In this document: in pieces, positions 7,201 through 59,900 of the stretch
How the letters are laid out: each line of letters starts with the position of its first letter
Numbering within the stretch: position 1 is the first letter of the stretch
Assembly: GCA_040954595.2 (NCBI GenBank)
Contig: CM082577.2
Span: 5,630,301-5,694,300 of the forward strand
Source of the DNA: Balanoglossus misakiensis
Taxonomy: Eukaryota; Animalia; Hemichordata
Reading direction: 5' to 3'
Length of the DNA: 64,000 bases
Notes under the pieces: generated by a model
What the model saw: only the letters and a program-made list of their open reading frames with translations
Told to the model about the DNA's origin: nothing
Databases searched by the model: none
Translations under genes and position numbers: made by a program

Positions 7201-9984
7201 GACAGATGTTTGTGTCAGTGGGAATCATTTGGGTTTCACTTATAATGCATCACTTAGGCTGGCTGGAGTGTATAGTCAGTGCCACCCAAAGTGTATATAT
7301 ACTCCTGCCTCTTTTAAACTTCATTGAAAAGGTATTCAAAGAAGTACACATTACCGTAACAGTGCTCGATTGTATGGCTGAAAGGCTGTAAGCATTTTCG
7401 TTTCACACGGATTTAAATGGTTTTGGATGGCATGAATGCTGTGACAAAGGGGGTGTATATTTTTCCATGAGAACTAAAAGATAGGGGAAAAGAAAGGGAG
7501 GAAATATCACCCAGCATATCTACCAAAAGATGCCACCCAGATAAACGTACGTACGGTTATTGCCCTGCCAGATTGAGTTCAAAATATGAAGATACATCTT
7601 ATACTTTTATACTCTTGGAGAAAAAGGATGATGTGTCTTTATAATTGGTTCTCACAAAATGAAAAGTAGTGTACAGAAACCTATAGTTTCGAAATATAAT
7701 TTAATCTTATTACACCCCCATGGCAGTTGCATTTATATCAGGGCTTTAATTTAAGAACACCAAGAAATAAAATCGACCTGTCTACATGAAAATATTAGGA
7801 CATTCGAGTACATAATATAAAGTAATTTCTGAATTAAACAAACTCTTGCAATTAACTGCTTTAAATAATTACAGGTCAACTAACTATCGTGCATATAAAG
7901 TTGCCATAGAAAACATTTTCAATTTAGTTAATGGGAAACATGCCTGTTTGGATGGATGGGTGTGTTTGTGTGTGTTCTCCATTGAAAAAAGATTACATGT
8001 TTAACTTTCAGCAAATTTCATACAATAATTTTGGGCTAGCTGGTAATAATAGATATTGAAAACGTTCAGAATACAATTTTTGTCAGGGAATGGGCAGTAA
8101 AGCCAAAATTGAAATGTCCAAAACTGCAAAAAAGATGATTTCATTCTGATCGGCTCCGGAGCATTCATTTGTCACCTGTATTAAGCCTGTCATGTTAAGT
8201 TGTTGTCAGTTTTAATGACCATTGACGTCATTGCCAAAGTTACAATATGGCACACAAATTCAGTACCCTTTTCAAAACATCTGGCCCGTGACATTCATTA
8301 AGTTGTTTTATACATTGAGTCAAAAGCCCAATTGTCTAAAAATATGATTTTGCTTATAACTATACTGGCGTCATGCTCTTGTTTACATAGATTTTCTGTT
8401 TCTGGAGGTGTTGACAGTTTTCACTTATAGAACTCTTACGTTGATCGCACGTTGGTTGACCTTTCTGGTGCCCGACGGTCAAGTTACGGCTTCAGATGAT
8501 TAGCCTTTTGGGTGCAATTATCATGTCACGAAACTAGTGCTTTGTGCCAGCGATGTCCATAACTGTTCTCTTAGCCAGACTCTGGGTGTAGCGATTGAGC
8601 ATGTTGTTGTGACATACTCAACCTGCAAATTATCTCCAGGGGTGCATGCAGATACCATCAGCTTTAATTTGTGTCAAATCGAGTCTGCACATTTACATGT
8701 AAACCTGAAAACAAGTACACGTAACGGCTGTAGACTCTGGATTGAGAATCTAGCAGTTATCTGACTCTGAGCACTGTCAACGCGACATCTAGCCACCATT
8801 TTCTGTTAACTTGAAAACACATACTGTGCAAAAGTAATTCAACTGCTCTCTTACTGTGCCTGAGGCTAGTCTGCTGGAGCACTGACCTGGAAGGCTATGA
8901 TCATGCTGTATCTCCTCTTTGATAACATTTTGTTTTTTGTCATACACATCATATCATATGTCAGATCACCAGAAAGTCTTTCATTTCCCATGTGATGATG
9001 GCAGTGGTTACCTTGGTGGGGGTGGGTGTGCAAGTTTTAATGTCAGTATAGTTGATTGAATTTAGTGTAAGCAAAAAGAGGGACATACATTGTGGGCAGC
9101 AGTCGCAGTATAATTGGACAAACATGTGCACTCAACATGTGACTGTCCTAAATATGTTGTTATTAATTTCTGAAATGGATTTGAAAAAAAGAAAGTTTGT
9201 GAGGTCTGGTGTGTATCAACATGTACTGGGAACCCTGCCCCTCCCGATCTTGGAGATGCTAAGCCACAATTTATCAGATCACCATGCACTTATCATTTCT
9301 ATTGATTGTCACATTCTCACAAACCATTGCTCAGACAGTTGTGATATTCAAATGAAACATGCAAATTTGTATTTTTAAGTTTATTTCTGTTCTATTTATC
9401 CAATACATGGTTGGAGAGTGTTACGCTTTGATGCCGTTTATCCTAATGCTGTTAAATTTGCTGTGTCTGGATGGTTGAAATTAAAACTCTTCAAATATTT
9501 GTGAAGGTACAGAGCATATGTTATGTACCTTCACAATTACTTGAAGAGTTCTATTGTAACAGTTTTGATGATATTTTTAGCATTCTTGTTGAAAACATTT
9601 GTTAGCTTTCGGCATGACAATCAGTTTCCCTTACACTGGCATGTCTTGTCACAATATATTGCATAAGACTGCACAGCTCAGTCACCTTATTATTAGGAAC
9701 AGTGATGTTATTGAAGTTCATACTAATTGCAAGCGATCAGATGGAACATGTATCCTAGCAAAAGAATTCCAATGACCCAGTGAATTGCGTCACAGTATTA
9801 AAATCATACACTTAGGCCCAAGTATCCAAACAAAATCCAATTATGGAGGCACTCAATTATGGATCCACTGGTTTCACTTAAACTTGAAAACTACAGGCCA
9901 TTGACTATGACTTGTTTAATTTCTTTACAGGCTGATATTCAATCTAGGGAGTACTTGCGGCAGAATTTTCCAACTTGCCAATAG
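1214..9984 (+). CDS. ENDOV: Endonuclease V, last two coding exons (1214-1342 and 9931-9984); the 5' part of the gene lies upstream of the window
   Basis: Exon 1214-1342 (ttcag|...|gtatgt, 43 codons) encodes [43 protein letters not shown]. Exon 9931-9984 (ttctttacag|) encodes [17 protein letters not shown]. The phase-0 join gives the EndoV C-terminal signature P-x-Y-x-S-x-G-H ... RIPEP-x-RQAD-x-x-SRE. The intron is 8588 nt. Confidence 0.93.
4900..5040 (-). mobile_element. Degenerate tRNA-derived SINE fragment in the ENDOV intron
   Basis: Minus strand reads ...GCGGGTTCAAGACCAGG (Pol III B-box-like), then GTTGTGCCCTCGAGCAA, resembling the GTGTCCTTGRGCAAG core that follows the tRNA head in many aquatic-animal SINEs. 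Boundaries approximate. Confidence 0.5.
9485..9550. repeat. 27-bp inverted repeat (hairpin) with a 12-nt loop in the last ENDOV intron
   Basis: AACTCTTCAAATATTTGTGAAGGTACA (9485-9511) pairs with TGTACCTTCACAATTACTTGAAGAGTT (9524-9550) at 25 of 27 positions. Confidence 0.9.
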
Positions 9985-31920: not shown

Positions 31921-32912
31921 CGTTCGCGCGGCTCAGCGGCCCGACCACAAGTCCTCGGCGGGATGGATCATCATTGGACCGCGAACCAGAAAGAACAAAT
32001 ACGTGTACAGTTTGGTGAATGAGGTTACAGTTACGATGCAGGCATCACACGCATTGCTTCCGCCAGCCTGGGGGTACGCGCGTACAATGAGGGCGTCGCG
32101 GATTTGTCGCTCCGTCCCCCGCCCCGGCGGAGTACAGACTGAAAATCCGCGTCTTCTATTTTCATTTTCGTGACAGTTGGCACATGGCTCGGTCAAACGA
32201 AATTAGATTCAGTGGACAAATTAAATGGTAATGTCACCTTGCTTGATTTGGGTTCATGAATGCATTTGCCCATAGAGAAAAAAAATTGACGTAGTGTTTT
32301 TCCTTCCAATTATCGGATATATTTCTGAACTTACATGTCATAACCGAGCACAATGACCATTCGTTTTATTAAGGAATTTAATAACACTTACATAGGAGAA
32401 TAAAAAAAATCGTAATTTACAGAAATGACCTTACTTTCAACATTACCGACCAGACACAATACCAATTTTGATAACCGACGCCAAGGAGAAAAAAATCATG
32501 ATTAAAAGAAATGACATTGCTTTCAAATTGGCTGATCGCACATCACTTAAAAATTAAAATTCCCGTTGGGCAATATTAAATACAGGTTTTGACAATGAGA
32601 ACACCTACACGAGAGAATAAAAAAAGTCGTAATTAACAAAGAAGAATGAAAAAACAGTAATTAAACGAGATGACATTACTTTCAACTGTACCGATTGTAC
32701 CTTCCTAAAATATGGAAGCGCTCGTTGGACACCATCGCCAACAATATATAGGCTAGTCTCCTCCGCCAGCGAAATTCCAAGAATGCGCATGTGCGGGATG
32801 GAATGCAACCGATGCCTCTTTGGATGCGAGGAGACACACTGTCAGTTGTGAGTGCGAATGAGCAACTGCGAATGTGTATCCGCCCGTTCGCCTGTACGTA
32901 ACGCCGCGTAAC

Positions 32913-34232
32913 ATGGATTGTGAGCAGTACGCGGTAAGTCAAGTAACTGATTATCATACATTTGCAGGGAAGGACGCCAAACTGCCGAACTGCAGCGATG
33001 TCGGGGAAATCAACGGAACCGGCTCGGACTATTTCAACGACGACTTGCTGCGTAATTTACTGCGCCAGTCGCTCTTCACCCACAAGTCACCGTCGACCAT
33101 CGTGCTCATCGCTCTCTACGTCATGTCGTTCATCACCGGCGTGGTGGGCAACGTGCTGGTCATTGTCGTCTGGTTCAAAAACAAGCACATACAGACCATC
33201 ATCAATTTCTTCCTGGTCAACCTGGCCGTGTGCGACTTGATGGTGATCTTGTTCTGCATGCCCATAACTTTGGGCAACGTCATTTACAGCGAGTGGATAT
33301 ACGGCGAAGTTTTGTGCAAGTTGACGCCGTGCATACAAGGCATGTCGGTGTCCGCCAGCGTTTTTATACTGACCGCCGTCAGCCTGAATCGCTTCTACGC
33401 CATCCACAAGCCGTTGAGAGCGAGGGTGTTGTACACCCGTCCCCGGGTGCGCAACTTCATCATCGTCGTTTGGATTATTTCGCTGATCCTGATGACTCCC
33501 ATACTGGTCGTGAACCGGCTGGAGATGATCACCAACGCGGACCTGGAAGTCGTCTCCCTCGCCGGTTGCACGGAGAACTGGAACCCCATCGAGCTGAAGC
33601 ACGCCTACAACGTGTTCCTCTTCCTCGTGCAGTTCGCCGTGCCCATGGCCATCATGTTCGTGGCGTACGCGATGATAGTGAAGGCTCTGGTGGCCGGCAA
33701 GTCGGCGCTGGGGAAGGACTGCAACCCGGACAAGCAGGTGGCGGCGCAGGACAGGAACCGCAGCAAGGTTGTTCGCCTGCTGATGGTGGTCGTCGTCCTC
33801 TTCGCCGTGTCCTGGTTTCCCTACCACGTGGCCACCATCTGGTTCGACTACAAGTCCAAGCAGGCCAGCGGGGAGTTCAGCGTCATGGTCTACCCCTTTC
33901 TGCAGTGGCTGGGGCTGTGCAACTCGTCGCTGAACCCGATCTGCTACTGCTTTCTGAGCAAGACCTACCGGAGGACGTTCAAGGCCACACTGCAGTGCAG
34001 GTGGGACAGGATGAAGAGTGTGAAAAACGGCATCGAGGGAGGACATTTCGGCCACAGCGTGGGACTCGGCAGCTCCAAACGCAAGTTTCGCGCCGGAACT
34101 CAAACCGGCTCGTGCAAAATGGAGAGGACAAGTTCGCGGTCGAGAAAGGCGGGCAGCAATGGAACTTTCACGTCAAAAACATCGAACGCCCAACCGAACA
34201 AGGAAGTTGTCTTCCTGGAGACAACGCTATAA
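32913..34232 (+). CDS. Class A (rhodopsin-like) neuropeptide GPCR, NPFF/SIFamide/orexin/QRFP receptor-like; single coding exon, about 439 aa from ATG 32913
   Basis: Seven hydrophobic segments with GN (TM1 GVVGN), NLAVCD (TM2), W-x-YGEVLCK (ECL1/TM3), IQGMSVSASVF...SLNRF (TM3), SWFP (TM6) and NSSLNPICY (TM7). N-terminal N-glycosylation sequons NCS and NGT, and an ECL2 Cys (GCTENW). The ORF-track start at 32874 is GTG; the first in-frame ATG is 32913. Confidence 0.95.
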   Translation: MDCEQYAVSQVTDYHTFAGKDAKLPNCSDVGEINGTGSDYFNDDLLRNLLRQSLFTHKSPSTIVLIALYVMSFITGVVGNVLVIVVWFKNKHIQTIINFFLVNLAVCDLMVILFCMPITLGNVIYSEWIYGEVLCKLTPCIQGMSVSASVFILTAVSLNRFYAIHKPLRARVLYTRPRVRNFIIVVWIISLILMTPILVVNRLEMITNADLEVVSLAGCTENWNPIELKHAYNVFLFLVQFAVPMAIMFVAYAMIVKALVAGKSALGKDCNPDKQVAAQDRNRSKVVRLLMVVVVLFAVSWFPYHVATIWFDYKSKQASGEFSVMVYPFLQWLGLCNSSLNPICYCFLSKTYRRTFKATLQCRWDRMKSVKNGIEGGHFGHSVGLGSSKRKFRAGTQTGSCKMERTSSRSRKAGSNGTFTSKTSNAQPNKEVVFLETTL

Positions 34233-39666: not shown

Positions 39667-41890
39667 CCAATAGCTGGAGAAACCAACCCTCGCTTAATAC
39701 AGTTATACAAACGCGTGACCATAGTGACCCAATTGTCCCTCTCATTTGGAGTTTTATGTGTTTGCGTCCAAGCCACGTTGTAAATTTGCTTGATTCGTTT
39801 TTTTTTATCATTAAACAGCTTGGAGATTCAGTGTGAACAATGAATAAATCATCACAGTGCAGCAGCTGGATATCATAAAAAAAGATAAAACTAATGTTAA
39901 TGTTTTGAAGCGCCACCATTCGAATCTCCAAAGACAGCGGGCTCTCTGTGAGCACAGAAATTGTCGGTTGTGTGCTGCACGCGCTTGTTAGTAGAAAAAT
40001 CAGGCATTAGGCACATGATGTGTAACTTCACAAACCTTGACATTTTCCAACAACGAAATACCATAGTTCTTCGCGTGTATTTACGGATTGACCCCTGACC
40101 CGCACTCACTCACTTTATACACGCAGACCCAACCCGCCAAATAGAACGCCGTTGACCCTTGACCTCTTGAAATATGATAAGTTTTCAGTTAGTTTCCTAA
40201 CACCCGAAACGTTGCTTACTTTTAAATTTCATTCGAAGTGTTTTAGCATTTTAGAAGAAATCATGGGGTTGGGACCTTTTGACTACTTCAGTGCAGTGAG
40301 ACACTTTTTTGAGTCACGCCCAATGAGGGTTGACGTGTTTTAAAATAATAAAGCAAGCACAGACGGCATTAAAAAAATATCGACATCCAGATAACAGTGA
40401 AGTTTGTAGCTTTGCATGCCAATTCAACACTAATAACTACTATAATTTAGTTGCTCTTCATATCAGGCGCCGATATTTGTTTACTAACGAAATCTAAATT
40501 GATAGTGTACAATGTAGCGTTATTAAAAAACATGTGATACACCGTGTGAAAATTGCATAAAGCATACACGAGTGACAGACATGGAAAAGATAACATTTAT
40601 GAGACATGCATGGCCTGAGCAACGTCAGGTTAAAACATAGACCCTGGAGAGAGGGGTATCCAGGGTCCATGGTTAAAAACTTAATATCGGGATGCCAGTA
40701 CCGTGCCCTACCTGTATTTCTACCCTTAACACTTGACAGTATGGCCAATAGCGTTGTCTCATACTGCAGTGTTGTCCTCTGATTTTATCCAGCCAAAATC
40801 GATCTGTTTCCCCGACACTTTGTTGGCACGTGCAATGAGGGTACTTGAGACGGGCAGACCAGTGGTAAATCTGTCATGACTGGCCTCATATCTGGTATCT
40901 TATTGCCTATGGTGTGCTGGCAGCCTGAGTTACCCACGTGTGGGATCGACAGCACTTGTTCTCGGCACACTTTGTGCACGTGGCACGTTAACCAGCGAGC
41001 GAGCGAGCGGCAAAAGTTCCTCATATCAAATATGGTGCCGATTAAAAAGACATATTCATGTCAGACACACATACACCCCCCCCCCCAACATGACCTACAC
41101 CTTTGCCTTTGGAGTTTTCGAGATGTTCTCGCGGCGTGGGCAAATGTAGGCCTACTATACACGATTTGGCGACCAAATGCCCGTGAATGAAGAGAAAGGA
41201 GGACATTTACCAACAGAAGAGTGCTTAACCGTTGCTATGGTTGGTCAGACATTATTCAGAAATGTTCATTGATACGAATCAGTATGGCCCAATTAGACTC
41301 CCTCCCGTTCCCAGAGGCTGACAGTTCGGACGGCAATGATTGCACGCGAATTGCCTTAGGTCTCGTGAGTTTTTGGTGATAATTTAACGAATCCATGTGA
41401 CGCGTTTCCCACAGCCAACCACATATATATGGGTAAGTGAGCGACATGGAATTATTCAAACCAGCACCGATCAGTACACACCACAGGTAGGTCTTGCGAC
41501 TTGCTAGTCACAAGCATCGCAATTTCCTCTCGACCAATCCCGCTCTGCTCTCTTCCACCATATTCGGCGATTCGTTTGTCCCGGCACTGCAGAATCTATC
41601 GACAACTCCGCCAATTTATACCCACGTTGTGCACCTCGAGAGCATAATCGAATACCAGTACACCAGGAGTGTCTTGGGTAGCAGCCTGACATGTGTATTT
41701 CTCAAGCGCTGTTGCATCTTGGTGTTTGAGCGAACGTCGACGATAGTTCTGACATTTTATTTTTCTCTCCGAGGAAAAGGGCGTAGAAGCAGCTAGGCCC
41801 GCGACCTGTGGTTTGTCATCACTTGAATACTGGTAATAACTCTGTCGTCACTTTTCTCTCCCCCCCCCCCCCATACAGCAGCAAGGCACC

Positions 41891-44800
41891 ATGCGTCTCT
41901 TCATCCTCTCCGTTCTCGTAGCAGTGGCTGCATCGCAGTACACAGGACCACTCCCGTGGGGTCTGGATCGTATTGACCAGCAGAAGTTGCCTCTTAATAA
42001 CGAATACAACCCATACGGTAAGCCATGTCCCCATTCCCGATTCTTTGACCGCTACCTTCGACAGAGAAAGAACAGTTCAACCACAGACTTGTAGGTCTGT
42101 CCAGTTACAAAGCGCGAGTTTCCGACGCCATGGCCTCCGTCGGATATCTACATTATACTTAGCTTCAAGTCACCAAGTCCAGATCAACCTCTATTAGATT
42201 AGTTTCATTTTTAATGAAACTAATCTAATATTATCTTGCGCAAAATTGTGAGAAAGGGTTTTAGACTTGGTTTTTTTAGACTTCGTCAAGGCGCGCACCT
42301 TTTCTATCAGCACCGTGGAAGAAGTTGTATTCTGAATAACGTCAAAACTTTTAGAACCTCGGCACAGTCGGAGAGAAAATATTGAAATGGGATAAGTATA
42401 TTTTCACACGACAGATTTGAGATCGGTAATCTGGGATTTTTTTTTTCCATTTTTTTCCTTTGGAACCCTATAAAGCCCAATCTTTCTGAAAAGATGAGGG
42501 TCTCTGTCCTTCTCCATGTCCGCTATTCTGTCATACATAGTACTGAATTTTGAAAATATGAAAAATCATGGCAAAAAAAAATCAGAATAGAGAGTGTGAG
42601 AGGCCTGTGGTCGTTGTCTTGGAGCAGTGAACCGGAAAACCAACATTATCCTTCGCAGGTGCCACCAATGGAGATCAGTCCATCGTTTACTGCATGGCAA
42701 CCGGAATTGAAAGGACCCACGAGAACTTCGGACCAGCTTTCAACAGAGTCGAATTGATTTACGACTTCGAGGGATCAGATGTACGTGAGCTGTATTAATT
42801 TATTAGTTCCCCGATCCTTTTACATGTAAACTGATATACCCAAATTCACCACATGTCGCAGAACAGGTGACGGTCACGGATTGCGTGTTTCTGATAGCCC
42901 AGCACCCACAATTTCGTTTTGTTTTGTTTTGGTAGCGCTAGTTTCAGCCACAAAATGATCCTGAAACAAAGATACAGAAACGCTGTTCCGATAAATATGC
43001 TTGTCAAAAGAAGTGTCGGTTGGCCGGGAAAACATTTTTGTAGCCTTGGCTAGCATGAATTCTTTAACCCTTTTCGCCTTTCACAGGGTACTGACACAAA
43101 TGGTGCTGGTACCGCTTTCGCTGGTATCATAGGTGGCCTGTACACAGGTGTTGCTCAACAAGCTACTCTTGGCATCGTCAGGATTAACTCAGTTCCCGAC
43201 CCCTTGGTTCTGGACTCCACCAAAGTCATCGAAGGTAAGCGACTCACAATTTTGTACAATATGCCATATCATACACGCACTTGACCCTGGGTATGGCAAA
43301 TTGGCCCCATCAGTGGTCTGTGGAACTGTTGCCGAACGGTGGCATTGGCAAACAAGTACACGTACCTCTGTTCTCAATCATTGCGTGTCACCCTTGTCCT
43401 AGACTCCCTCACAGCCCAAGGTTCGCTACAAGGCTCTTCACTGATGCGCCCTCAACTGTTTAGCAAAGGAGAAGCCCCATATGGTGTTGTGCCTCTCGCC
43501 GGGCACACATGCAATCAGTCCATCATCCTGCATGGACGACGAGAGGGGCTGTGAGAGAGTCTACCCTTGTCCGTGCCAGGCCAGTAATTTATCAACTTAT
43601 CCGAAAACAATGTTCATTTTAGAGAAATGAAATTCGGAGGTTTGACAGAGAAAGAAAGAAACGACATTCGAGGCACTTGCTTACAAAACGCTCCCGCGCG
43701 CCGCGTATTTGTGTTTCGCCTGAAGGTATGACCGCCATCCTTGATCACTACAAGAGCTTGAAAGCCGTCAACCCGACCGGCCATCTTCGCGGAATTGCCG
43801 TTGGCGCTCCATCTGTCCCAGAAACCGCCACCAACCTGGCTCAGATCGAAGAGTTGATGAGAGACATGGTCAGAGAGGGCATCACTGTCATCGGACCTGT
43901 TGGAGACGACGTGAACGCTGGAGCAGCTGACTGCGAGACACTGTCGCCAGCAAGACTCCATTACGAACCCGGTGTAAGTACATTGTATATTGTAACACAC
44001 CATGCAGCGAACCCTCGATTGTGATTCGTCAATATGCCGTCACGTGACCTTAGTCATTTCGAACTGTTCCCTAGGGCATCATTTCGATCAGTTTCTGCCC
44101 GGTACTGTTGCCCCGTCTTGATATAATTCCATGTTTGGTGTGTTACAAAACACATGGTGACTGACATATTCGGGCAACAGTGTATTTTTGACGACCTCGG
44201 GACTGCCAGTCACACCAAAACAGTCTGTTTTCCCTCGGGCTATGCCCTCGGGAAAACAAGACTGTTTTAGTTGTGACTAGCAGCGCCCACGGACATCAAA
44301 ATACACTGTTGCCCTCATTGTCAGTCATTATGTGTATACTGTCAGCAACCTCGAACAAAACAACGTGTCTCAGTCCAAGCAAACGCGTTTTGCGAGATCT
44401 CGCGAGACTTGGGTAATTAATTACCGCAACAACCGGTTGCCAGCCAAGTAATACAAGTCGAGCTTTGTATGTGAAACTAGAATAGGACGATTATGGTGTT
44501 TTAGTTTGAAGTCTGCAGCAGCTTACTGAATATGATCTAGGACCAAACGTTTCATTCAGTACAGGTATGATTGTACTGCACAGTACTGTGATTGTCTTCA
44601 TTTGTTTCCTTTGATAGATGATCATTGCCGGTGGTTTGACAGACAACGACTACCGTCATCCCAATTCCGTCGTTGGTGGCGCCGTCCACTGTGCACATAT
44701 CTATGCTCCCGACCACGAAATCGTATCCTCTGTCACCGCCAACTCTTACCAAATAATCCCAACAGAAACCGCGTTTGCTGCTGCCCACATTGGAGGTAAC

Positions 44801-45579
44801 CAGTGTGTTTTTACTTCTAATGCATTCCCATTGTCGTGATCACAAACCCTCTTTTTGCGGCATCTACTTCATCTACTTTATTGAGAAGATACGGCAAAAT
44901 ACATGTACACATGATGAGCAATGGTAGACCAGAGGGGCTTCAAGCCATACTAAGCATGTCCTATACGCAATTTCTTGATTATTTTTAATTGATCGCAGGT
45001 GCTGCAGCTAGGCTGAGAACAACATGCCCTAATCTGACAGAGAAGCAGGTCAAGGATTTCTTGATTGCCGGATCCAGAGTGCACGGTAACCCTGCCTTGG
45101 ACTTGGACGGTACACCCATCCCCGACAGATACATTCTCCGCGTCCCGTAAGTAGTGCTGTACAAATAGAAATCTTGTCAAGGTCCAGAGTGTGTAAGAAA
45201 TGGGTATTATAGGTCTCTGTCACCTGCGAATCCGATCATAGACTGCTGTCGAGTGTGTGCTGTAGAAATCCCCTCAGTAAACATGGATAAGTGGGGTGCC
45301 TCCCCCACTATCACCCAACTCCAAAACAGGGTGACCTCTCCCATCAATCCACCACCCCGGGCCGAAGAAACTGACCACTCCCTAAGGTGATGTGAATTGC
45401 CCTTGTATAGTATGTGACTGTTTCAGATTGTATATAACTACAGAAGGATTCGAACCAGCATCATCTGGTGCTTTCAAAGGGGTTTATTCATACGGATTTA
45501 ATATTCACACAACGATTTTCCTCTGTTCTTTTTCAGATACGCCACTGACCCTGCTGGTGACTGTATCCTTCCCGCATAA
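41891..45579 (+). CDS. Secreted subtilase (peptidase S8, proteinase K/aqualysin-like) homolog, catalytically inactive and lacking a propeptide; 7 exons, 337 aa
   Basis: Exons 41891-42017, 42659-42780, 43087-43234, 43726-43973, 44618-44795, 44999-45146 and 45537-45579 have GT-AG introns in consistent phase (1,0,1,0,1,2) and total 1014 nt. The protein has signal peptide MRLFILSVLVAVAAS, then PWGLDRIDQ..LPL, VYCMATGI..TH..FG, DTNGAGT..AG.IGG..TGVA..A.L..VR, GITVIGPVGD, DC..SPAR, C..IYAP..I.S, ETAFAAAHIGGAAA and P.LT..QV. These are colinear with the mature aqualysin/proteinase K domain. AATAAA at 45647-45652. Confidence 0.92.
42192..42230. repeat. Perfect 18-bp-arm palindrome in intron 1 of the subtilase gene
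   Basis: TATTAGATTAGTTTCATT-TTT-AATGAAACTAATCTAATA. Confidence 0.92.
44150..44335. mobile_element. Fold-back MITE-like element (about 186 bp imperfect palindrome) in intron 4 of the subtilase gene
   Basis: Arms ACACATGGTGACTGACA..GGGCAACAGTGTATTTT..AGTCACA..AAAACAGTCT and AGACTGTTTT..TGTGACT..AAAATACACTGTTGCCC..TGTCAGTCATTATGTGT surround a CCCTCGGG-ctatg-CCCTCGGG centre. Confidence 0.8.
45180..45500 (-). mobile_element. Possible tRNA-derived SINE in intron 6 of the subtilase gene
   Basis: Minus strand has GCTGGTTCGAATCC (strong B-box/T-loop) near 45446-45459. Extent is estimated. Confidence 0.35.
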
Positions 45580-47900
45580 TAAGCAACATTGATTTTTCGG
45601 TTATGGCCATCCCAATGTAACAAAAAAATCTCCTCACTATTGCCACAATAAAAGTTAAAACAACACGTTGAATGAAATCAATTAAAATGTTTGTGTCAGT
45701 GGTTATTTTGTGTTTGTGTATGATGTCTGTGATTGAAGATAATGAGAGGGGTGCAAGATTGGGGAAATGCAGGCGTCGTCGCCTGGAGGGAAATGGTTTT
45801 TGAAGGCGCGTAAGTCGATACTGAAGATAGAACAAGCCGCCGCGTCGTTTGCTGCCACTGGCAAGATTCCAAACGGTGTATTTTAGTAGAAAGTAATAAG
45901 ATTTAAAACATGAAAAAAAATTACTGCACGTGTATAGTACAGTACTCTGTCGAGACTTGTAAACACTTCATCTGCATGTAATTACATGTATCCCAGAATA
46001 GATCCATTTGCTACAGAGCTCATGAAGCGTCTGCTTTTTGACAACAAGGCCAAAAATGTTCATTTCCTGTATGCCCCTCAGGCAAAAAAAAATCGCCTCT
46101 TCGGATTCGAAGGCATGCGCACTGGCCATGTATACCTGTCGTGACAAACTTCAACACGAGATGCGCATTTATAACGCTACTAGTACTAGTATATCATTGT
46201 ATTTTAATACGCGAAATTTCTCCTGTGTATTAAAAGTTCCCTATCTATACCAGACATTTTTATTTCCCAACATAAACGTCATCGGTCCTGATAAATTGAT
46301 ACTAAGCCATGAATGTTGTCTGTACATCAAACCTGATACATTTTTGTACATGTATATGAATAATTCCTAAACAGGGGTGTAACCAGGGTTTTTGGATGTT
46401 CCTAGGCTAGTTGCCACACATGCAAGCTGTATACATTTTCTCAGGGTTTTGCCGTCTTTCTTGGGGAGTTCCAGTGCAACAATTTCACATCTCACGCCGA
46501 CGTGGACAGGTGACATGTATACTTCAAAGGATCGTCAAGGGGGTGGAGTGGTGGCGTTGATCATCCTTTCTTGTGTGTTCACCTCGCCATCTGTAAGATT
46601 CAGACACAGGCCGTTGGACAAGTTTGTGTGTTGAATCTACTGTTGTGTGACTTCAGGTGTTAAAAGCTAGTAGTTTTTGTTTTTTTTCTCTGTGAGTGTG
46701 AGCATTTTTTTAACACAGAGTTGGACGAACTGTCTGTCACATTGTTGGTCATAATTTGTGATTTTTTCCTGTTCTTGCCAATGGCGCAACATATAATAAA
46801 ATCTTCACATAAGGATAAACTGACGAATTTTATTGATTAAAACTATGCTATGAGTGGCAGCTATTGGAGCTTTATAATGCAAACCAAAACTGAAAACTTT
46901 TGAGCAGAATGCCGTTTCTATAGGAACTCAACAATTCACACACAAATGTGAGAACAGTAACCTTACGCTGGCCACATGAGATATGTCAAGTGTTGGGATA
47001 ACATTTATATTTATCTTATACGTCATACAAATGATACGCGCCATTGTTGTCACATGTCGCTAAAATTCACAATGTGAACCATCGAAACCGAAAATGATTA
47101 CAGTCGTTCTCTGCCGTTCTCTCCTCTGCCTGCCAAGAATCTGTCTCTGATTAGAGTCTGAGTCTGTCTGTTTGTCTGTCTGTCTTTCTCCCCTCCTCCA
47201 TCCCTCACACACCGCAACAAAATACTTTACACTGTCGACAGCCGGTTGTGCCGTGTGTCGGCCGCGGTATATAACCGTGCGAAGTTATTTTCGTATACCT
47301 AATAAGGCGCCCGCCAATTCTGCTTTGAAACACCGACTTCACGTAGAACTCGCCTTAGCTGCAGAACTTAACGCAGCTCCAAGTTTTGCCTTGAATTGTG
47401 TTAGGACAGATAAAACCTGTTTTGTCGCCCACACACAACACAAGGAAAACTCTGCAGCTCAGTGCTGGCGTTGCGACGCTAAATTATGCAAATAAGTCGT
47501 CACCGACTGCTGACGGTCTACAAGAAATGCTTTTCATTTCTCTTCACACAAGTCATACCAGTACGCGATTTGGGCCGTGTTATTCTCTGATATAACGTCC
47601 TTCATGATTGGTTGGTTTAAAGAAAGTAACGTGGAAAATCCGCTCTGTGATTCAGATACTATTTGTGTTTTGTCGTCACGGTCAGATAGCCAGAAATAGA
47701 ACCATGCTAATAAATTATTCGCCTCTAGACATGCCCAGTGCATGTAGAATCGTGGTGACCCGCGCCCTACATTTAATCGAAACAGCGTAAAGTGGTAAAC
47801 AACAAGCCTTTTTCCAGCAACTGATTCATACGTATGTCGCGCGCCCAGCATCACAGAACGCGAGATTGGAAAATGATCAGCATAGTATTGTGCCGCGCAG

Positions 47901-48076: not shown

Positions 48077-49668
48077 ATGAAATCATACGAGATCGCCTAC
48101 TTTTCCAGAAATGTCATTCTAGCTATCATTGTGGTCGTCGCGGAAACGGCATTGGCGTTTGCAAATGACGGTGGAAGTGCTCATCCTCTAGGTAAGCAAA
48201 CTTCACTGGACACCCCAAAACGCACCGATTTTTTCATTGACCGATCTGAATCATTGGTGCGTGGTGAATATGGTCTCACAGAAAAAATCTCAAATTAATC
48301 TCATTTTTATTTATATATATTTTTTTATATCGATGACTGATTCACGCCAAAGCAAAGGGGAAATAACACATTTTGACACATTAGCTGGCATCTATCCAGT
48401 TTAAAGGGGCAATGTCGACCTTTGACCTTATTTCGGTTGCTTCTATGGCACCTGACTGAAACATGCTCATTATGACAGTGTTACATGCCAAACTCGCACC
48501 CTGTACATGGACGTAACACTTGGCCACTTTCACCTTTTAATTTCTGATCGGTAAAAAAAGTGTGTCGCAGTATATTATTCACAATGTATGTTTTGTCCAT
48601 ATACATTGTATAGAGTTGCGTTGTGGCAACTCGTGATTTGAGCACAATTTACCGAGAAGAATGACATCATAAATCCCACTGTCAACAGAACTGAAATAAT
48701 CATCATAATGTCAAAAGTGAACGACCTTTCCCCTTTAAGGAGTCGATATCCGAACTGCGACTGCGACAGAATGCAGCTGCAGATTTGGAAATACCCATTG
48801 TTCGCGTCAAAACTGTCAGGGTATTGTTATTGGAAAGTACCGCAAATTCCGCAGTATGCCAAGATCGTTGGCGCACGCGCAGGAGCTGCAGCTGTCAGTC
48901 CCTGTTTTACCGCACCAATATCGAGGTTCCGCCGCCCCTGTTTATAGGCCGTGATTGTTAAGTGATTATCTGGAATCAAACGCGCATTTTACAGAATGCA
49001 CGATAAACAGGGGCATCTTATCCTCACAATAACAACGATCACGTATTTTCGTTCTCCTCTTAGCGTTTCCAAACCAAACAGAGACCAGCCAGATTATCGA
49101 AACGAAAGGTATGCAAATCTTCTATATCAGGATGTACTTTTTTAAATATTCAACGTTCGGGATCAGCTGAAATGTTTTGACAAGATTCCCATTTTCAAGT
49201 ATATGCTGTCACGCACTGACTATTGTCTTGTGGGTGTTCAAATACATCAATGACTGAGTAAGTTGTTAAATATGTTCAAATGAAACAGAAAGTTTCACCA
49301 GGTGATGGGAGCCGGCATAGGACATGTGCATTGTGCCGTTCCCAAGCTTACGTCACACTATTGTGAACACGGCATAAATGAATAAATATTCTGCACTATT
49401 TTCCATCGTTTCTTGCACACACGATTGTTACTCCAGAACTTCCACCGTATAACTCTTCCCTCCTCCAATTTCAGACCCAGTCGTCTTTTCCTGGGAACTA
49501 GCATTGCTTTTGGTTCTTGGCGCCGTGGCAGTTTTGGTCTGCCAGATGCTGATCGTCATTTTCTGCGTCCGCTGCGAGAAGCCGAAGCACATCCAACTGG
49601 CGGAAGGATCGGTGGTCGGCGACGTAGAGAAAGTGAAAATGGGTGACGCGCCCCCAGCTGCAGTGTAA
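48077..49668 (+). CDS. Small type I single-pass membrane protein A (117 aa), uncharacterised; exons 48077-48191, 49064-49108, 49475-49668
   Basis: Phase-1 GT-AG introns give MKSYEIAYFSRNVILAIIVVVAETALAFANDGGSAHPL-A-FPNQTETSQIIETK-D-PVVFSWELALLLVLGAVAVLVCQMLIVIFCVRCEKPKHIQLAEGSVVGDVEKVKMGDAPPAAV*. It has a signal peptide, an NQT sequon, a TM helix and a short tail. The model is supported by exon-for-exon similarity to paralog B. Confidence 0.85.
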
Positions 49669-51865: not shown

Positions 51866-52787
51866 ATGGCCCTATGCGAGATACCTTTCGCCAGCTGGTT
51901 TTCAAGAACCATCATTCTATCCCTCTTTGTCATATTGGAAACGACACTGGCGCTGGCAAAATCTTATGATGGAGACGCACAGTTTCCAGGTAAGAAAGTT
52001 TTACACGCAACAGCGAGAGGGTGCGGGCGGATTAATCATCTCGGGGTCTGTTTTTTTTGCGTCAAAATAGAGTTTAGCAGAACGCATTTTTGACAATTCT
52101 GTTGCGGAGATCCTAAGTCTTTTGCGAATTGCAACTGCGTCACAACACAGATGGGGAAAGACCCGTGCTGTTTGCGTCACACACCGAAGATCGGGGAATA
52201 CCCCCATACAATATGTTACCATGGTGCCGGGAAGTACACCTGTGCGCACGCGCATTCAGGATTCACTATATTATAGCCTCGCGACGTAATTTAGGATAGT
52301 CTCGTGCAAATAAAAAATGTCAACATACTTAACGGACGCCAAAAAGAATGTATTATGCTTAAAATACCACTTTTTCTTCTTCTTCCTCCATCTCTTCCAG
52401 AATCGAGAGCATACAACCAAACCGAACCTGGTCAGACTGCCGAAGCGAAAGGTACAGTATTAGTTAAATGTACAGCTCTTGTTATTTTCGTTATTTCGAA
52501 TCGATTAATATCCCTCAAACGTTTGTTCATTGCATGCTTCAGACAATTTAGAGTGAAACTCTTCTCATCTTCAATTTTCAGGCTTCGACATCTTTCCGTG
52601 GAGATTCGCTATACTGTTGATATTTGGTGCTGGAGCGGTTTTGATATGCATGCTCCTGGTCTTTGCCTGCTGTGTCCGCCGCGAGAAGCCAAAGCACATC
52701 CAGCTGGATTCGTTGGCGAAAGAAACGGTGCTCATCAGCGACGTAGAGAAAGTGAAAGTTGGTGAGGCGCCCCCAACGACAGTATAA
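51866..52787 (+). CDS. Small type I single-pass membrane protein B (126 aa), paralog of A; exons 51866-51989, 52401-52451, 52582-52787
   Basis: Phase-1 GT-AG introns give MALCEIPFASWFSRTIILSLFVILETTLALAKSYDGDAQFP-E-SRAYNQTEPGQTAEAK-G-FDIFPWRFAILLIFGAGAVLICMLLVFACCVRREKPKHIQLDSLAKETVLISDVEKVKVGEAPPTTV*. It shares NQTE, EKPKHIQL and DVEKVK.G.APP with A. Confidence 0.85.
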
Positions 52788-55700: not shown

Positions 55701-56931
55701 GTAACCCGCATTATTTACATTGTGTCAAACCCGCCGTGTGTTTACACATCTTTTCAGGATGAGGTTAAACTGGCGATAAGAAAATAGACCATGGAATAGC
55801 ATACCGCTTTAACATGTTAACAGGGTGCACGACTTGCAATGTTACTAAACTCAGAAAAAAACACCTGTTGCTTTCGGGATGGAAACGATAAAGATTTTCA
55901 CTTGAGTAAAGAAATACCAAACAATGACGCCCCCAGTTGGCCAAGGCAAGTCGAACAGTGCGTCGACTGCAGTTGCCGTCGGCCGGTGAACTTTAAATGA
56001 CATTTCGACGGTTTTCCGCGTAAATTCTAAAGAACTGGTTAGGTACACGACACATAGTGTAAACATGGCTAGAAGAGAAGTCCACAAAGAGAGGTAGGAA
56101 CCATGAAATTTGTCACTGTTGCTTTTTTCACCACGGTGCGGCGACGAAGCCGGAAGTGTATGTACAGTACAGTCGAGAGCGCCCTGAATTACCTGGTCAT
56201 GAATATTAATACCACTGTTGCTATGGTATCAAAACATAAATACCTGTTTACGCTAATCCCGTTAAATATTATGACGATGATGTGACGACAGTAGGGTGAC
56301 CTGGAATTTCACTGTTCCAGTCTGAAATTTGTGGGATGGAGACCCCGCCCACTGAGAGTGTGAGACATTGACTATAAGTCCGATCACGCAGTCAAGCTGG
56401 GAAATTGGAGTACTAAAATGCAAGAACCCCTTACTTTATATCATCTAAACTTCACAACCGATATTTTAACAAGCAGGCCTGCAAAATACCCGATTTTTAG
56501 TTTGGGTCCCCTCTGACACAGACAGGTAAGTAGCTGTGAGCTTGTGTAGGTGTTATATGACACCCCCTGTTGCATAGTGGTACAGTCCTGATAATCAGAA
56601 CCTCCTCACAAAACACTTTAGGCCAATCAGGTGACATCATATCTGACATCGATTTTTCTGCTGTGTTGTATGCAAAGACAGTTATATTATTGTTAGACAT
56701 TTGCCTAGCTTTTCAGTAATCCTCAAGCCTGGCATCACACGTGCAGCAATTGTGTGTACCCTGCACATATTGCGTAAATTCAAATCCAGTCCTGGTTAAA
56801 TCAGTTCAGTCCATGATTTTATTGCTCCATTGTGTTGGGAACTCACTACAGGACAAGACTTTCATATATGTTTTTAACCCTTTTTAAAGTCAGCACGCAA
56901 AATAACCTGAGTGTAGTGAGAACTGGAAGAG

Positions 56932-59900
56932 ATGGCTTCAGGTTTACTTGTACGTTGCATTGTAGGTGCTGCACTGTCGGCGATGGCCCTGCCCGTCGCG
57001 AGCCAGACCGCCAGTTTGCAGCTCAGCGTCACGTGTGCCCCGGGCAGCTTTCTGGACAGACACGGACAGTGTGAGCTTTGCACGGAATGCGTGCATCTCG
57101 CAGACTGCCACCACTGCCGGTTGCAAGACCCGGAGGCCAGTGAGGCCGGGACTTTTCCAGACTGCCCCGAGGGGTTCTTTCCCGACTCCTCCGGTGGCTG
57201 TACCGATTGCCTGCTGTGTGAGCTGAACCCGGGAGTACCAGGATGTCGACGATGTGGTAAGTGCACGTGATTGTTTTTTCCTGCTTCCACTTTTTCTGAC
57301 TGATATGCGTAAATCATTGAAAGAGCCGACGTGTCTCGCACTTAATTACAGCAACAGCAGAATTTCAATTCACAAAATGCACGAAGAAAGAATCAGGGAA
57401 GTCTGGGAAGTGAAAAGAAATGCAAAAAAAGCAAAAGTTAGCACCAGATTTGAAACTATTGAAATAATCTAAAATTATAGAATTATTAAAATTGTGTGTA
57501 AATTTAATATTGAAGTCAACAGTTGCTCATTTCTCTTTGAGACTCTTTGAGGCACCTGTTGCAAAACAGTAAGTATTTTAATTTATTGTGTCTGCAAGCT
57601 TGCAAAAGAAAACATAAAAGCAGCAATTACTGAAGGAAACTTCTTGCTACTCTGTTTTATTTTTTACGGTTTTTGATTTTTTAATAATTTTCAAGTTGAA
57701 TAATTGTCTAAAGTTTTTGTTAGCATCAGCAACTTGTCAAAGAGAGATGGAAACACACTAGTCCTTTTCTACAGTGAGCAAAGGATCCAGTACTCACTGA
57801 GGTGTAAATTGTAAAAATGGAATACCTGTGAATTTAGCGTGAAGGATCTCTACAACTTTTAAGTGGTCCAATTGGTGCCCCCTTTTGTGGCTGTTATTTT
57901 ATTGTCAACGTTACCTGTTACAACAAAGTCAAGTGGGCCACTTCAACAATGTGAGCATCAATTAGAATGGTATATTTGACATTTTTCTCAGTATTGAGGG
58001 GAAGACAATGAATGATATTATCTAAGTTTTTCGCTCCTACACAAACGTGGTTAAGCTGTTATAACAACCAGTTCACGTGTTTCTTTTTACGCGGGTGGCC
58101 CACGCCAAAAATCATAATGCCCAAGTTTTATTTCTTCTTCGGCAAAATGCCCCCTTTGTTTCAGACGGCATTCTGTCAGCAAAGGCCTGAATCATGTCTG
58201 GTATGGAGAGAATGTCGGCTAATCTAATTTGCATAATTAACACAATTGGAAGGGGTTGCCGCAGGTGTTGACTTACAGGGAGGAGGAACGAACTACAAAA
58301 GTCGCCGGCGGTTTGGAACAAACGTACCGGCTTTGTTTAGTGTTAATCTCCTGTTAAATACGTTTGATGGTAATGAGGGATGCTTATTGTGATGGCCCTG
58401 GGAAACCTCTTTTTTTGTTTTCTGTTCCGTGCCTGTCACTTGTAGGTCCACATTGTGTCGGGCCTACTGGTAAGCTTTAACGCATCATTGTACCGGAGAA
58501 AGGTGCGTTTTGTCCCATTTTCAAGTTCCGATCCCCAGCCCCCTCCCCCCCCCCCCCCACACACACACAACTATGAACTAAAGCCCTCCTTTTTCAATCA
58601 GCGCTGAAGTCACTGTTGTTTGTAAATCAGATTTATTTTCGTACTCGCAAAAGCAGAGGCGGTTTGAAAGATAGCCGCATTTGCGAACCTAATCTATGGC
58701 CCACGTGAGTCCCACTCTTGAAATAAGTGCATACTGTTATTTTTTCATCATTGCATGTTTACAAAATAAAAAAAGCATCCGAGGAATGTACCATGTTTTG
58801 TCAACTGGTGGATAAAAAAAATTGTGGGTCGAGCGTAAGATGTCGAGTCAGTACCACATCAAAAGAGTTTTTGATTCCGCGATAACGGCGGTATTTCCTG
58901 TCCCAGATTATAGTCGGTGGCTCAATCAGAAAGTTTCATTCTACAAACACAGGTGACTCAGATTAAGTACATTTACAAGGAAATGAACACAAGGCAGCTT
59001 CCTATTTCTATTTAGACTCATTTGTATGTCGTGGTGGTTTTTGAAGTTTTTTTTTTATTCGGGTTTAATGATTAATTCAGCTGGCGTGTCAGGTCAGTGG
59101 GGTTTACACAGGGTGATGGTGTCCTATTGTGCAGCCGATCACTTCAAGGTACCATTGCCAGTGAGAAAGACAAACAAGTGCAAGGTTTCACAAACATCAC
59201 GGATTAAAATAATCTGGGGCTGCATGAACCGGCAACACGACATGGGGAATCCCCGGGCCCCCCAGACGCGCGACAGAGTCTAGGTCTAATCGCTTTTAGT
59301 TCGTGCGGTAGACTCTGTACCCAGCGTGGCGCTGGCGGGTCCCCCCTAAGACTTCCTGAATGCCACGGTGTCGGGCAACACGAAATGTGAACGGAAGAAA
59401 CGATAAATACACGGATTACTGATAAAAATCTCCTTCACAGAAAGTGCCAGCTGGATTGAGTTTGATACATAATCTGCTGTTTTCTCTACCGAAAGTGTCA
59501 ACAGGTGTCGAGTGATGAGAATATGCCGAATGTTTGATCGCCGGAAAAAATAAAATTTGGGAGACAGTTGCACCGGAATCGGGTGCACTCAGCCAGCCCG
59601 AGGAATGCAGCCGGATAATTTGAACAACCGACAGCTGGAAAAATATTCGTGAATTTAAATACACTATGCCCCACTGCCATTTTTATTGCCAATGTCAGAT
59701 ATTTAGCCGACTGATGCAATGTATATATATATGTGGTAATGTCTATTGAACGCGTAGATCTGTATTTAAGTTGTCGTAGTGTATGTACACTACACACGTT
59801 CTTTTCTGATAAGACTCTGGTAAGATGTGATTAACTTTAAAGCACAGAGAAAAAAACATTTTGGCATTTTTGTTGTTGAATAGTGTTGAGATATTTGTTA

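What the first reader, a model, noticed from the sequence alone, without database searches (positions are those of the whole stretch)
41891..45579. Secreted pseudo-subtilisin with all three catalytic triad residues replaced by alanine
Seen in sequence: the spliced 337-aa protein aligns motif by motif with proteinase K/aqualysin-type S8 proteases. The Asp motif IDTG reads MATG (GCA 42697-42699, Ala56). The His motif NGHGT reads NGAGT (GCT 43105-43107, Ala90). The Ser motif GTSMATPHVAG reads ETAFAAAHIGG (GCG 44771-44773, Ala267). The oxyanion AAGN reads PVGD (43905-43907), and the substrate-binding strand NMSLGG is replaced by VGAPSVP. There are no stops or frameshifts over 7 exons, all splice sites are canonical and a poly(A) signal is present. 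Established: D/H/S are essential for S8 catalysis, and PCSK9, of the same subfamily, acts on LDLR as a non-catalytic ligand. Inference: this is a maintained pseudoenzyme whose emptied active site may serve as a ligand or small-molecule pocket, an inhibitor decoy, or a structural or secreted (mucus, egg coat, defence) protein. I do not know of a described family like this.
Basis: partly seen in the sequence, partly recalled or inferred. Interest (0 to 1): 0.9.

Follow-up and report, generated by a model that had tools for sequence, protein, structure and literature searches.

The report
Acorn-worm prodomain-less dead subtilisin family
This intact gene encodes a relative of the protease behind human PCSK9 that has lost all its cutting residues and its folding helper domain, a design shared across three acorn-worm families and likely kept as a secreted binding protein rather than an enzyme.

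Summary
It is not a one-off. Eleven database relatives come from Ptychodera flava (6; 63-70% identical), Saccoglossus (4) and Glandiceps (1); ten of them form one clade with the window protein (100/99) with active-site columns removed. None has a triad and none of the full-length ones a prodomain, so the design predates a split dated at over 370 My. Exact Ala/Ala/Ala is not what is conserved (2 of 9); Saccoglossus has Ser/Gly, Arg/Met and Ile/Gln/Ala/Ser. A relative folds as a proteinase K-type subtilase (pLDDT 91, Z 39). Four introns match human PCSK9 in codon and phase (a fifth by recall), so it descends from the animal PCSK9-type lineage. The substrate groove looks closed, and new conserved residues cluster on two outer helices. 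Most likely a secreted non-catalytic binding protein; partner, tissue and expression are untested. Dead subtilases are known (CspC, PIMMS2); I found no description of this family.

The parts
41891..42017 (+). Exon 1: start codon, predicted signal peptide (about residues 1-15) running directly into the mature-enzyme N-terminus (WGLDRIDQ motif); no prodomain between them
   Evidence: cleavage site inferred by eye
42659..42780 (+). Exon 2, former catalytic Asp strand
42697..42699 (+). Ala56 codon GCA at the catalytic Asp position
43087..43234 (+). Exon 3, former catalytic His helix; both Cys of the first aqualysin-type disulfide are lost
   Evidence: (weak Peptidase_S8 match, E 0.15)
43105..43107 (+). 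Ala90 codon GCT at the catalytic His position
43726..43973 (+). Exon 4: extended outer helix, family insertion, altered substrate strand, oxyanion loop
43734..43868 (+). Residues 136-180: two outer helices and their link, holding 9 of 24 family-specific conserved residues; candidate new binding or self-stabilising face
   Evidence: role inferred
43806..43823 (+). APSVPE in place of the NMSLGG substrate-pairing strand
43905..43907 (+). Asp193 codon GAC at the oxyanion Asn position
44618..44795 (+). Exon 5, former nucleophile helix
44771..44773 (+). Ala267 codon GCG at the catalytic Ser position
44999..45146 (+). Exon 6, with family-specific Cys284 (45025-45027)
45537..45579 (+). Exon 7 coding part, with family-specific Cys333 (45562-45564; likely bonded to Cys284) and TAA stop
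   Evidence: disulfide inferred
45647..45652 (+). AATAAA poly(A) signal

Best explanation
This is an intact gene for a proteinase K/PCSK9-type protein that lacks the catalytic triad and the prodomain, belongs to an old acorn-worm family, and likely works as a secreted non-catalytic binding protein that holds a protein or glycan partner on a remodelled outer face rather than in the old active site. Shown: exon chain, loss of Asp/His/Ser/Asn, absence of the prodomain, a clade across three acorn-worm families, introns shared with PCSK9. Predicted: the subtilase fold (modelled on a 70% identical relative) and secretion. Inferred: an animal PCSK9-like protease gene lost catalysis and its prodomain; a dead enzyme cannot cut off its prodomain, so deleting it removes a block to secretion. 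Extended outer helices and a new C-terminal disulfide stabilise the bare domain. The old groove is closed, and the conserved outer face binds a partner in mucus, gut or egg secretions. Partner and tissue are not known.
For: Pseudoenzyme: no intact triad in the window protein or any of 11 relatives; Asp lost in 10 of 10 and His in 10 of 10 that cover those positions, Ser kept in 1 of 11 (P0207). No prodomain: signal and mature N-terminus share exon 1. A prodomain profile from 12 sequences finds nothing in the window (best E 0.83) or in 11 family proteins (best E 1.1), but hits the 4 triad-intact controls not used to build it (E 3e-18 to 6e-9). Selection: identity to P0003 is 68 of 76 at columns at least 80% conserved among 123 non-family subtilases and 78 of 130 at columns under 50% (Fisher p 3e-6). 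Random decay to 70% identity left the frame open in 2.6% of 2000 runs without indels and 0.05% with them. Clade of 11 rows, 100/99, active-site columns dropped, from Ptychoderidae, Harrimaniidae and Spengelidae; the Saccoglossus-Ptychodera split is put at over 370 My (PMC4729200 passages). Fold: pLDDT 91.4; best matches are proteinase K-type enzymes, Z 39.2, rmsd 1.8 over 271 residues. Origin: introns 1, 2, 3 and 5 fall at the same codon and phase as PCSK9 c.523, c.657, c.799 and c.1180. Groove: substrate-strand Gly replaced in 11 of 11, against Gly in 16 of 27 triad-intact comparison rows; Phe or Tyr follows the dead nucleophile in 11 of 11. New face: 9 of 24 family-specific conserved residues lie in residues 127-182, which are 56 of 321 (p 0.012). 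PCSK9 S386A is retained in the ER (PMC3820617). Outside this family, 7 of 8 prodomain-less subtilases are triad-altered, against 8 of 111 with a long N-terminal region.
Against: No direct evidence on partner, tissue or expression. The helix enrichment is modest (p 0.012, region chosen after seeing the data), and several of those residues may only pack the insertion. That these helices are the prodomain-docking face is recalled and was not confirmed. I could not inspect model coordinates, so 'groove closed' rests on sequence alone, and 11 of 27 triad-intact comparison rows also lack that Gly. In the Ptychodera-like subclade all three triad positions are Ala or Gly in 5 of 5 full-length members, which fits a kept cavity. 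The model is of P0003, not of the window protein, and its alignment is mostly active enzymes. dN/dS could not be computed (no relative's DNA). In the decay simulation an open frame is not rare at shallower divergence (15.6% at 85% identity without indels), so a recent loss of function in this one species is not excluded. The co-loss count covers 119 of 179 sequences, is biased by the query, and includes related rows (about 4 independent cases).
Confidence: 0.5

Rival explanations
1. The emptied active site is a pocket for a small molecule or cation, for example the halogenated aromatics that acorn worms accumulate, as the CspC pseudoprotease is thought to sense bile acids.
For: Ala or Gly at all three triad positions in 5 of 5 full-length Ptychodera-like members; an acid at the oxyanion position in 11 of 12 members (Asp 10, Glu 1); Glu or Asp just before the dead nucleophile in 5 of 6 of that subclade. 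Enteropneusts accumulate halogenated aromatics (abstract start of PMC6315191 in listing). CspC precedent (PMC7200643 passages).
Against: Saccoglossus members put Arg or Met at the His position and Ile, Gln, Ala or Ser at the Ser position; no triad position is conserved family-wide, unlike CspC, whose replacements are strictly conserved. New Phe residues next to both lost residues may fill the space. No pocket was measured.
Confidence: 0.2
2. It is a bulk structural or storage protein of mucus, egg coat or yolk that uses the stable fold and binds nothing specific.
For: Predicted secreted, acidic (pI 4.1-5.1 for 9 full-length members), multiplied in P. flava (5 copies share a 41.5-Mb longest contig and near-consecutive accessions), and fast-evolving between families (31-42% identity).
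Against: 24 family-specific residues are kept across more than 370 My, more than a passive filler should need; active sea-urchin and brittle-star homologues are just as acidic.
Confidence: 0.13
3. It is a decoy or regulator in protease warfare: it soaks up subtilisin inhibitors or substrates, or binds and controls the many active PCSK9-like paralogues.
For: Schizocardium gene labels run to at least Pcsk9-61 (PMC13554239 supplement 5, first 15 rows seen), so many paralogues exist to regulate or shield.
Against: A decoy needs the canonical groove, but the pairing-strand Gly, the Gly before the nucleophile and the first disulfide are all changed family-wide. Those labels could not be tied to sequences.
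Confidence: 0.1
4. It has a new catalytic activity built from other residues, such as the acid at the oxyanion position.
For: Asp or Glu at position 193 in 11 of 12 members; conserved family-specific Tyr, Arg, Lys and Glu residues.
Against: No family-wide nucleophile, His or acid pair at the old site; one member has Met at 193; the same Asn-to-Asp change occurs in unrelated dead subtilases.
Confidence: 0.05
5. It is a pseudogene, or the active exons were missed.
For: No transcript was seen here.
Against: Open frame and canonical splice sites; the same changes in 11 annotated relatives; a family profile finds only six exons of this gene and no other copy or alternative exon in the window; conservation follows the fold.
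Confidence: 0.02

Closest known systems
Proteinase K/aqualysin-type S8A subtilases (1s2n, 2b6n, 4dzt)
   Same: Predicted fold (Z about 39, rmsd 1.8-2.1 over about 272 residues), N-terminal WxLDRxDQ motif, second disulfide, 28-31% identity.
   Different: No Asp/His/Ser/Asn, no prodomain, altered substrate strand, first disulfide lost, extended helix with insertion, new C-terminal Cys pair.
PCSK9 and deuterostome PCSK9/aqualysin-like proteases
   Same: Same subfamily; 4 introns at the same codon and phase (a fifth by recall); PCSK9 acts on LDLR without catalysis (PMC3820617).
   Different: PCSK9 keeps its triad, cleaves itself, stays bound to its prodomain and has a C-terminal domain. This family has none of these.
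Clostridioides difficile CspC and CspA pseudoproteases
   Same: Subtilase fold with a broken triad and a non-catalytic role (PMC7200643 passages).
   Different: Bacterial, keep an uncleaved prodomain; CspC replacements are strictly conserved, here they vary.
Plasmodium PIMMS2
   Same: Subtilisin-like candidate pseudoenzyme with signal peptide (PMC5520436 passages).
   Different: Has a transmembrane segment and C-terminal extension; the P. berghei protein keeps D/H/S residues in degraded motifs; unrelated lineage.
Inactive secreted S1 protease homologues (azurocidin, haptoglobin, scabies SMIPP-S); recalled, no call
   Same: Dead secreted protease copies reused as binding or defence proteins, sometimes multiplied.
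   Different: Chymotrypsin fold; analogy only.

Membership tests
Peptidase S8 (subtilase) fold family | Pfam PF00082 match above the curated cut-off | tested here: met
   10 of 11 relatives scanned pass 21.8 bits (26-59 bits); P0206 does not (P0006 not scanned, so 9 of 10 scanned family proteins plus P0064). Single window exons give only a weak match (E 0.15); the joined window protein was not scanned.
Peptidase S8 (subtilase) fold family | Subtilisin fold | tested here: met
   Model of relative P0003, pLDDT 91.4; Foldseek E 3e-24; Z 39.2.
Active S8A proteinase K-type protease | Asp/His/Ser triad | tested here: not met
   Ala56/Ala90/Ala267.
Active S8A proteinase K-type protease | Oxyanion Asn | tested here: not met
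   Asp193.
Active S8A proteinase K-type protease | N-terminal I9-type prodomain | tested here: not met
   Signal peptide and mature N-terminus adjacent in exon 1; prodomain profile negative with positive controls.
Active S8A proteinase K-type protease | Proteolytic activity | not testable with these tools
   Needs an assay.
PCSK9 orthologue | Shared intron positions in the catalytic domain | tested here: met
   4 of 6 window introns match boundaries seen in papers; a fifth matches the recalled c.996; intron 6 has no match that I could check.
PCSK9 orthologue | Triad, prodomain and C-terminal Cys/His-rich domain | tested here: not met
   337 aa, ends just after the subtilase domain.
PCSK9 orthologue | Groups with PCSK9-like sequences in a tree | tested here: inconclusive
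   The family sits on a long branch with its sister unresolved.
CspC-type subtilase pseudoprotease | Broken triad | tested here: met
CspC-type subtilase pseudoprotease | Uncleaved prodomain retained and strictly conserved replacements | tested here: not met
CspC-type subtilase pseudoprotease | Small-molecule sensing | not testable with these tools
   No ligand data.
Acorn-worm prodomain-less pseudo-subtilase clade (defined here) | One clade with active-site columns removed | tested here: met
   11 rows, 100/99, one side of a branch in 100% of 200 bootstrap trees; bootstrap not fully settled; P0006 fragment left out.

The most novel reading that the evidence does not exclude
Acorn worms turned a PCSK9-type protease into a chaperone-free, catalytically dead secreted scaffold more than 370 My ago. 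The face that once docked the prodomain became a new ligand-binding surface, or the emptied site became a carrier for their halogenated defence compounds. Joint loss of triad and prodomain is a repeated route by which subtilases become binding proteins in animals and microbes.
Probability: 0.3. Interest if true: 0.75.

Novelty: new variant of a known kind. Interest (0 to 1): 0.52.

Why it matters
Databases name these proteins 'aqualysin-1-like' or 'alkaline serine exoprotease', which is wrong for function. If they fold and are secreted without a prodomain, they are natural answers to how a subtilase folds without its intramolecular chaperone, a standing question in subtilisin folding and PCSK9 biology. 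They would also be an animal case of the PCSK9 lineage giving up catalysis altogether, and a lineage-specific secreted family worth testing in acorn-worm mucus, defence and egg biology.

Tried and rejected
RNA runs: none was listed, so no reads were laid. No whole genome is held for the window, so copy number, synteny and dN/dS are open. A fold from a 2-row alignment was useless (pLDDT 34.9) and was replaced by a 133-row one. A two-copy complex of P0003 gave no answer (score 0.00, no support and no evidence against). The ESM Atlas returned only generic S8 clusters. Earlier scan findings: nothing in 3 look-ups. My recollection that the hemichordate genome paper lists PCSK9 as a transferred gene was not confirmed in its main text or 2 supplements. 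Papers for the PCSK9 c.996 boundary were not found, nor a passage for the prodomain-helix contact. Glandiceps P0064 (dead triad, prodomain kept) joined the family in a quick tree (support 92) but not in the careful tree without active-site columns, so I do not use it as an intermediate. Microbial prodomain-less dead subtilases group with microbial enzymes, not with this family; fresh gene transfer is also disfavoured by the introns. Pfam I9 is not a sensitive test here: it missed P0143, which has a prodomain. Supplements of the P. flava regeneration paper could not be read and may hold expression data; those of PMC11618098 had no hit. A pairwise check of exon 2 against P0071 was uninformative.
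Full report
Observation. The region holds a seven-exon gene on the + strand (41891-45579). Trying every nearby GT and AG gave 8 open chains over 320 aa; the longest is the 337-aa chain, and the others differ only at exon 6. The chain is independently supported by Ptychodera flava RefSeq proteins, which hit exons 1-6 and align end to end at 66-70%. The source is therefore likely a ptychoderid acorn worm; I did not identify it further. There is one copy in the window.

The hydrophobic leader runs straight into the mature N-terminus of a proteinase K-type enzyme within exon 1. Ordinary members have about 100 residues of prodomain there. A profile built from 12 prodomains finds nothing in six-frame translations of the window or in 11 family proteins, but hits the four triad-intact controls not used to build it. 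The prodomain has been deleted, not hidden in an intron.

A family, not an accident. Three homologue searches and one representative search returned 11 close relatives: six from P. flava (P0002-P0006, P0048), four from Saccoglossus kowalevskii (P0049, P0050, P0206, P0207) and one fragment from Glandiceps talaboti (P0066). These species belong to Ptychoderidae, Harrimaniidae and Spengelidae. With the columns around the triad, oxyanion and substrate strand removed, the window protein and ten relatives (P0006, a fragment, left out) are one side of a branch at 100/99 among 49 rows; the bootstrap had not fully settled. The Saccoglossus-Ptychodera split is given as over 370 My (PMC4729200, passages). 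No member outside acorn worms turned up, but the word-indexed searches scored only about 8000 candidates each and the representative search listed the best 150 of 9624 hits, so absence elsewhere is not shown.

What is conserved is loss, not alanine. At the Asp position members have Ala, Gly or Ser; at His, Ala, Gly, Arg or Met; at Ser, Ala, Ile, Gln, Gly, and in one case (P0207) still Ser. Exact Ala/Ala/Ala occurs in 2 of 9 members covering all three sites. The oxyanion Asn is Asp in 10 of 12, Glu in one, Met in one. The Gly of the substrate-pairing strand is Pro, Thr, Asp or Glu in 11 of 11 (Gly in 16 of 27 triad-intact rows), the residue after the dead nucleophile is Phe or Tyr in 11 of 11, and the first disulfide is gone.

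Selection and fold. Between the window protein and P0003, identity is 68 of 76 at columns strongly conserved in other subtilases, 56 of 84 at intermediate ones and 78 of 130 at variable ones (p 3e-6). Random decay to 70% identity rarely leaves the frame open (2.6% without, 0.05% with indels), though at 85% identity it does so in 15.6% and 1.2% of runs. P0003 folded on a 133-row alignment gives pLDDT 91.4 and matches proteinase K-type enzymes best. The window protein itself was not folded.

Origin. Intron 2 lies six codons before the His position in phase 0, as does PCSK9 c.657/658; intron 3 splits the conserved Gly (133 here, 267 in PCSK9) in phase 1; intron 5 splits the Gly eight residues after the nucleophile in phase 1; intron 1 splits the residue aligned with PCSK9 Asp175 in phase 1, allowing for a two-residue insertion absent from P0002. 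The PCSK9 boundaries come from variant names in tables of PMC9521372 (c.524-11, c.657+9, c.658-36; passage) and PMC8891005 (c.799+3, intron 7 c.1180+17; passages of a flattened table). Intron 4 matches c.996/997, which I recall but could not find in print. Four matches of six by chance is about 2e-6 even allowing one codon of slip. The gene thus descends from the animal PCSK9/aqualysin-like lineage, which is large in acorn worms: Schizocardium labels reach Pcsk9-61 (PMC13554239, supplement 5, first 15 rows seen).

How it most likely works. Subtilase prodomains are folding chaperones removed by self-cleavage (PMC7200643, passages), and catalytically dead PCSK9 is held in the ER (PMC3820617, passages). 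A dead enzyme with a prodomain is stuck with it; this family deleted it. The same pairing appears outside the family: of 179 other subtilases examined, 119 passed filters for a complete N-terminus, and 7 of 8 without a prodomain have an altered triad against 8 of 111 with a long N-terminal region (query-biased, about four independent cases, one mapping unreliable). The family has gained 24 conserved residues of its own, including a Cys pair (284, 333) and nine residues on an extended helix, its insertion and the next helix (p 0.012). From memory these two outer helices are where the prodomain docks in subtilisin. I infer that they now stabilise the bare domain and form the binding surface, and that the old groove is closed. 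I put the pseudoenzyme-family claim at about 0.93 and the outer-face binding mechanism at 0.5. A small-ligand pocket (0.2) remains open for the Ptychodera-like subclade, where all triad positions are Ala or Gly and two acids flank the site. Bulk structural use (0.13), decoy or regulator (0.1), new chemistry (0.05) and pseudogene (0.02) follow.

Comparison and novelty. It is a member of the S8 fold family but fails the tests for an active S8A protease and for a PCSK9 orthologue. Dead subtilases are known: CspC and CspA keep their prodomain, PIMMS2 has a transmembrane segment (PMC5520436, passages). Searches for a description of this family (listings only, at most 20 rows each) showed none; none of the 20 listed acorn-worm papers contained 'aqualysin' or 'cuticle-degrading'. 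Subscription journals are mostly not covered, and unseen supplements (bioRxiv files) may hold expression data. Verdict: real, a new variant of a known kind, interest 0.52.

Noticed in passing
window 32862-34232 +: Single long open frame for a rhodopsin-family GPCR (7tm_1, E 1e-56), apparently intronless, about 7.7 kb upstream of the gene.
   Followed up: partly
window 49453-49665 + and 52557-52784 +: Two paralogous exons (54% identical over 65 aa) encoding a transmembrane segment and a short tail; likely tandem membrane-protein genes.
   Followed up: partly
window 56920-57270 +: Signal peptide followed by Cys-rich repeats with a weak TNFR_c6 match (E 0.027); possibly a TNF-receptor-like gene.
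   Followed up: partly
window 41420-41880 +: A pyrimidine tract and AG acceptor 12 bases before the ATG, with candidate donors at about 41433 and 41486 and a TATA-like run at about 41422, suggest an untranslated first exon.
   Followed up: no
window 42691-42693 (Cys54): The window protein has a fifth, unpaired Cys two residues before the former catalytic Asp, absent from the P. flava relatives.
   Followed up: no
P0064 (Glandiceps talaboti XP_077998247.1): A second acorn-worm dead subtilase (Ser/Gly/Val at the triad) that keeps a prodomain-like region and does not join the family in the careful tree; possibly an independent loss.
   Followed up: partly
P0051, P0052, P0054, P0100, P0125, P0208, P0209: Unnamed environmental proteins with a signal peptide, no prodomain and altered triads; three carry two or three such domains in tandem. 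They group with microbial enzymes.
   Followed up: partly
P0068, P0072, P0081, P0102, P0134, P0145: A separate supported clade of long proteins with Ala at the nucleophile and in several cases Phe or Leu at the His position; source not looked up.
   Followed up: no
window about 9456-9576: Short inverted repeat seen as a self-match in six-frame translations.
   Followed up: no
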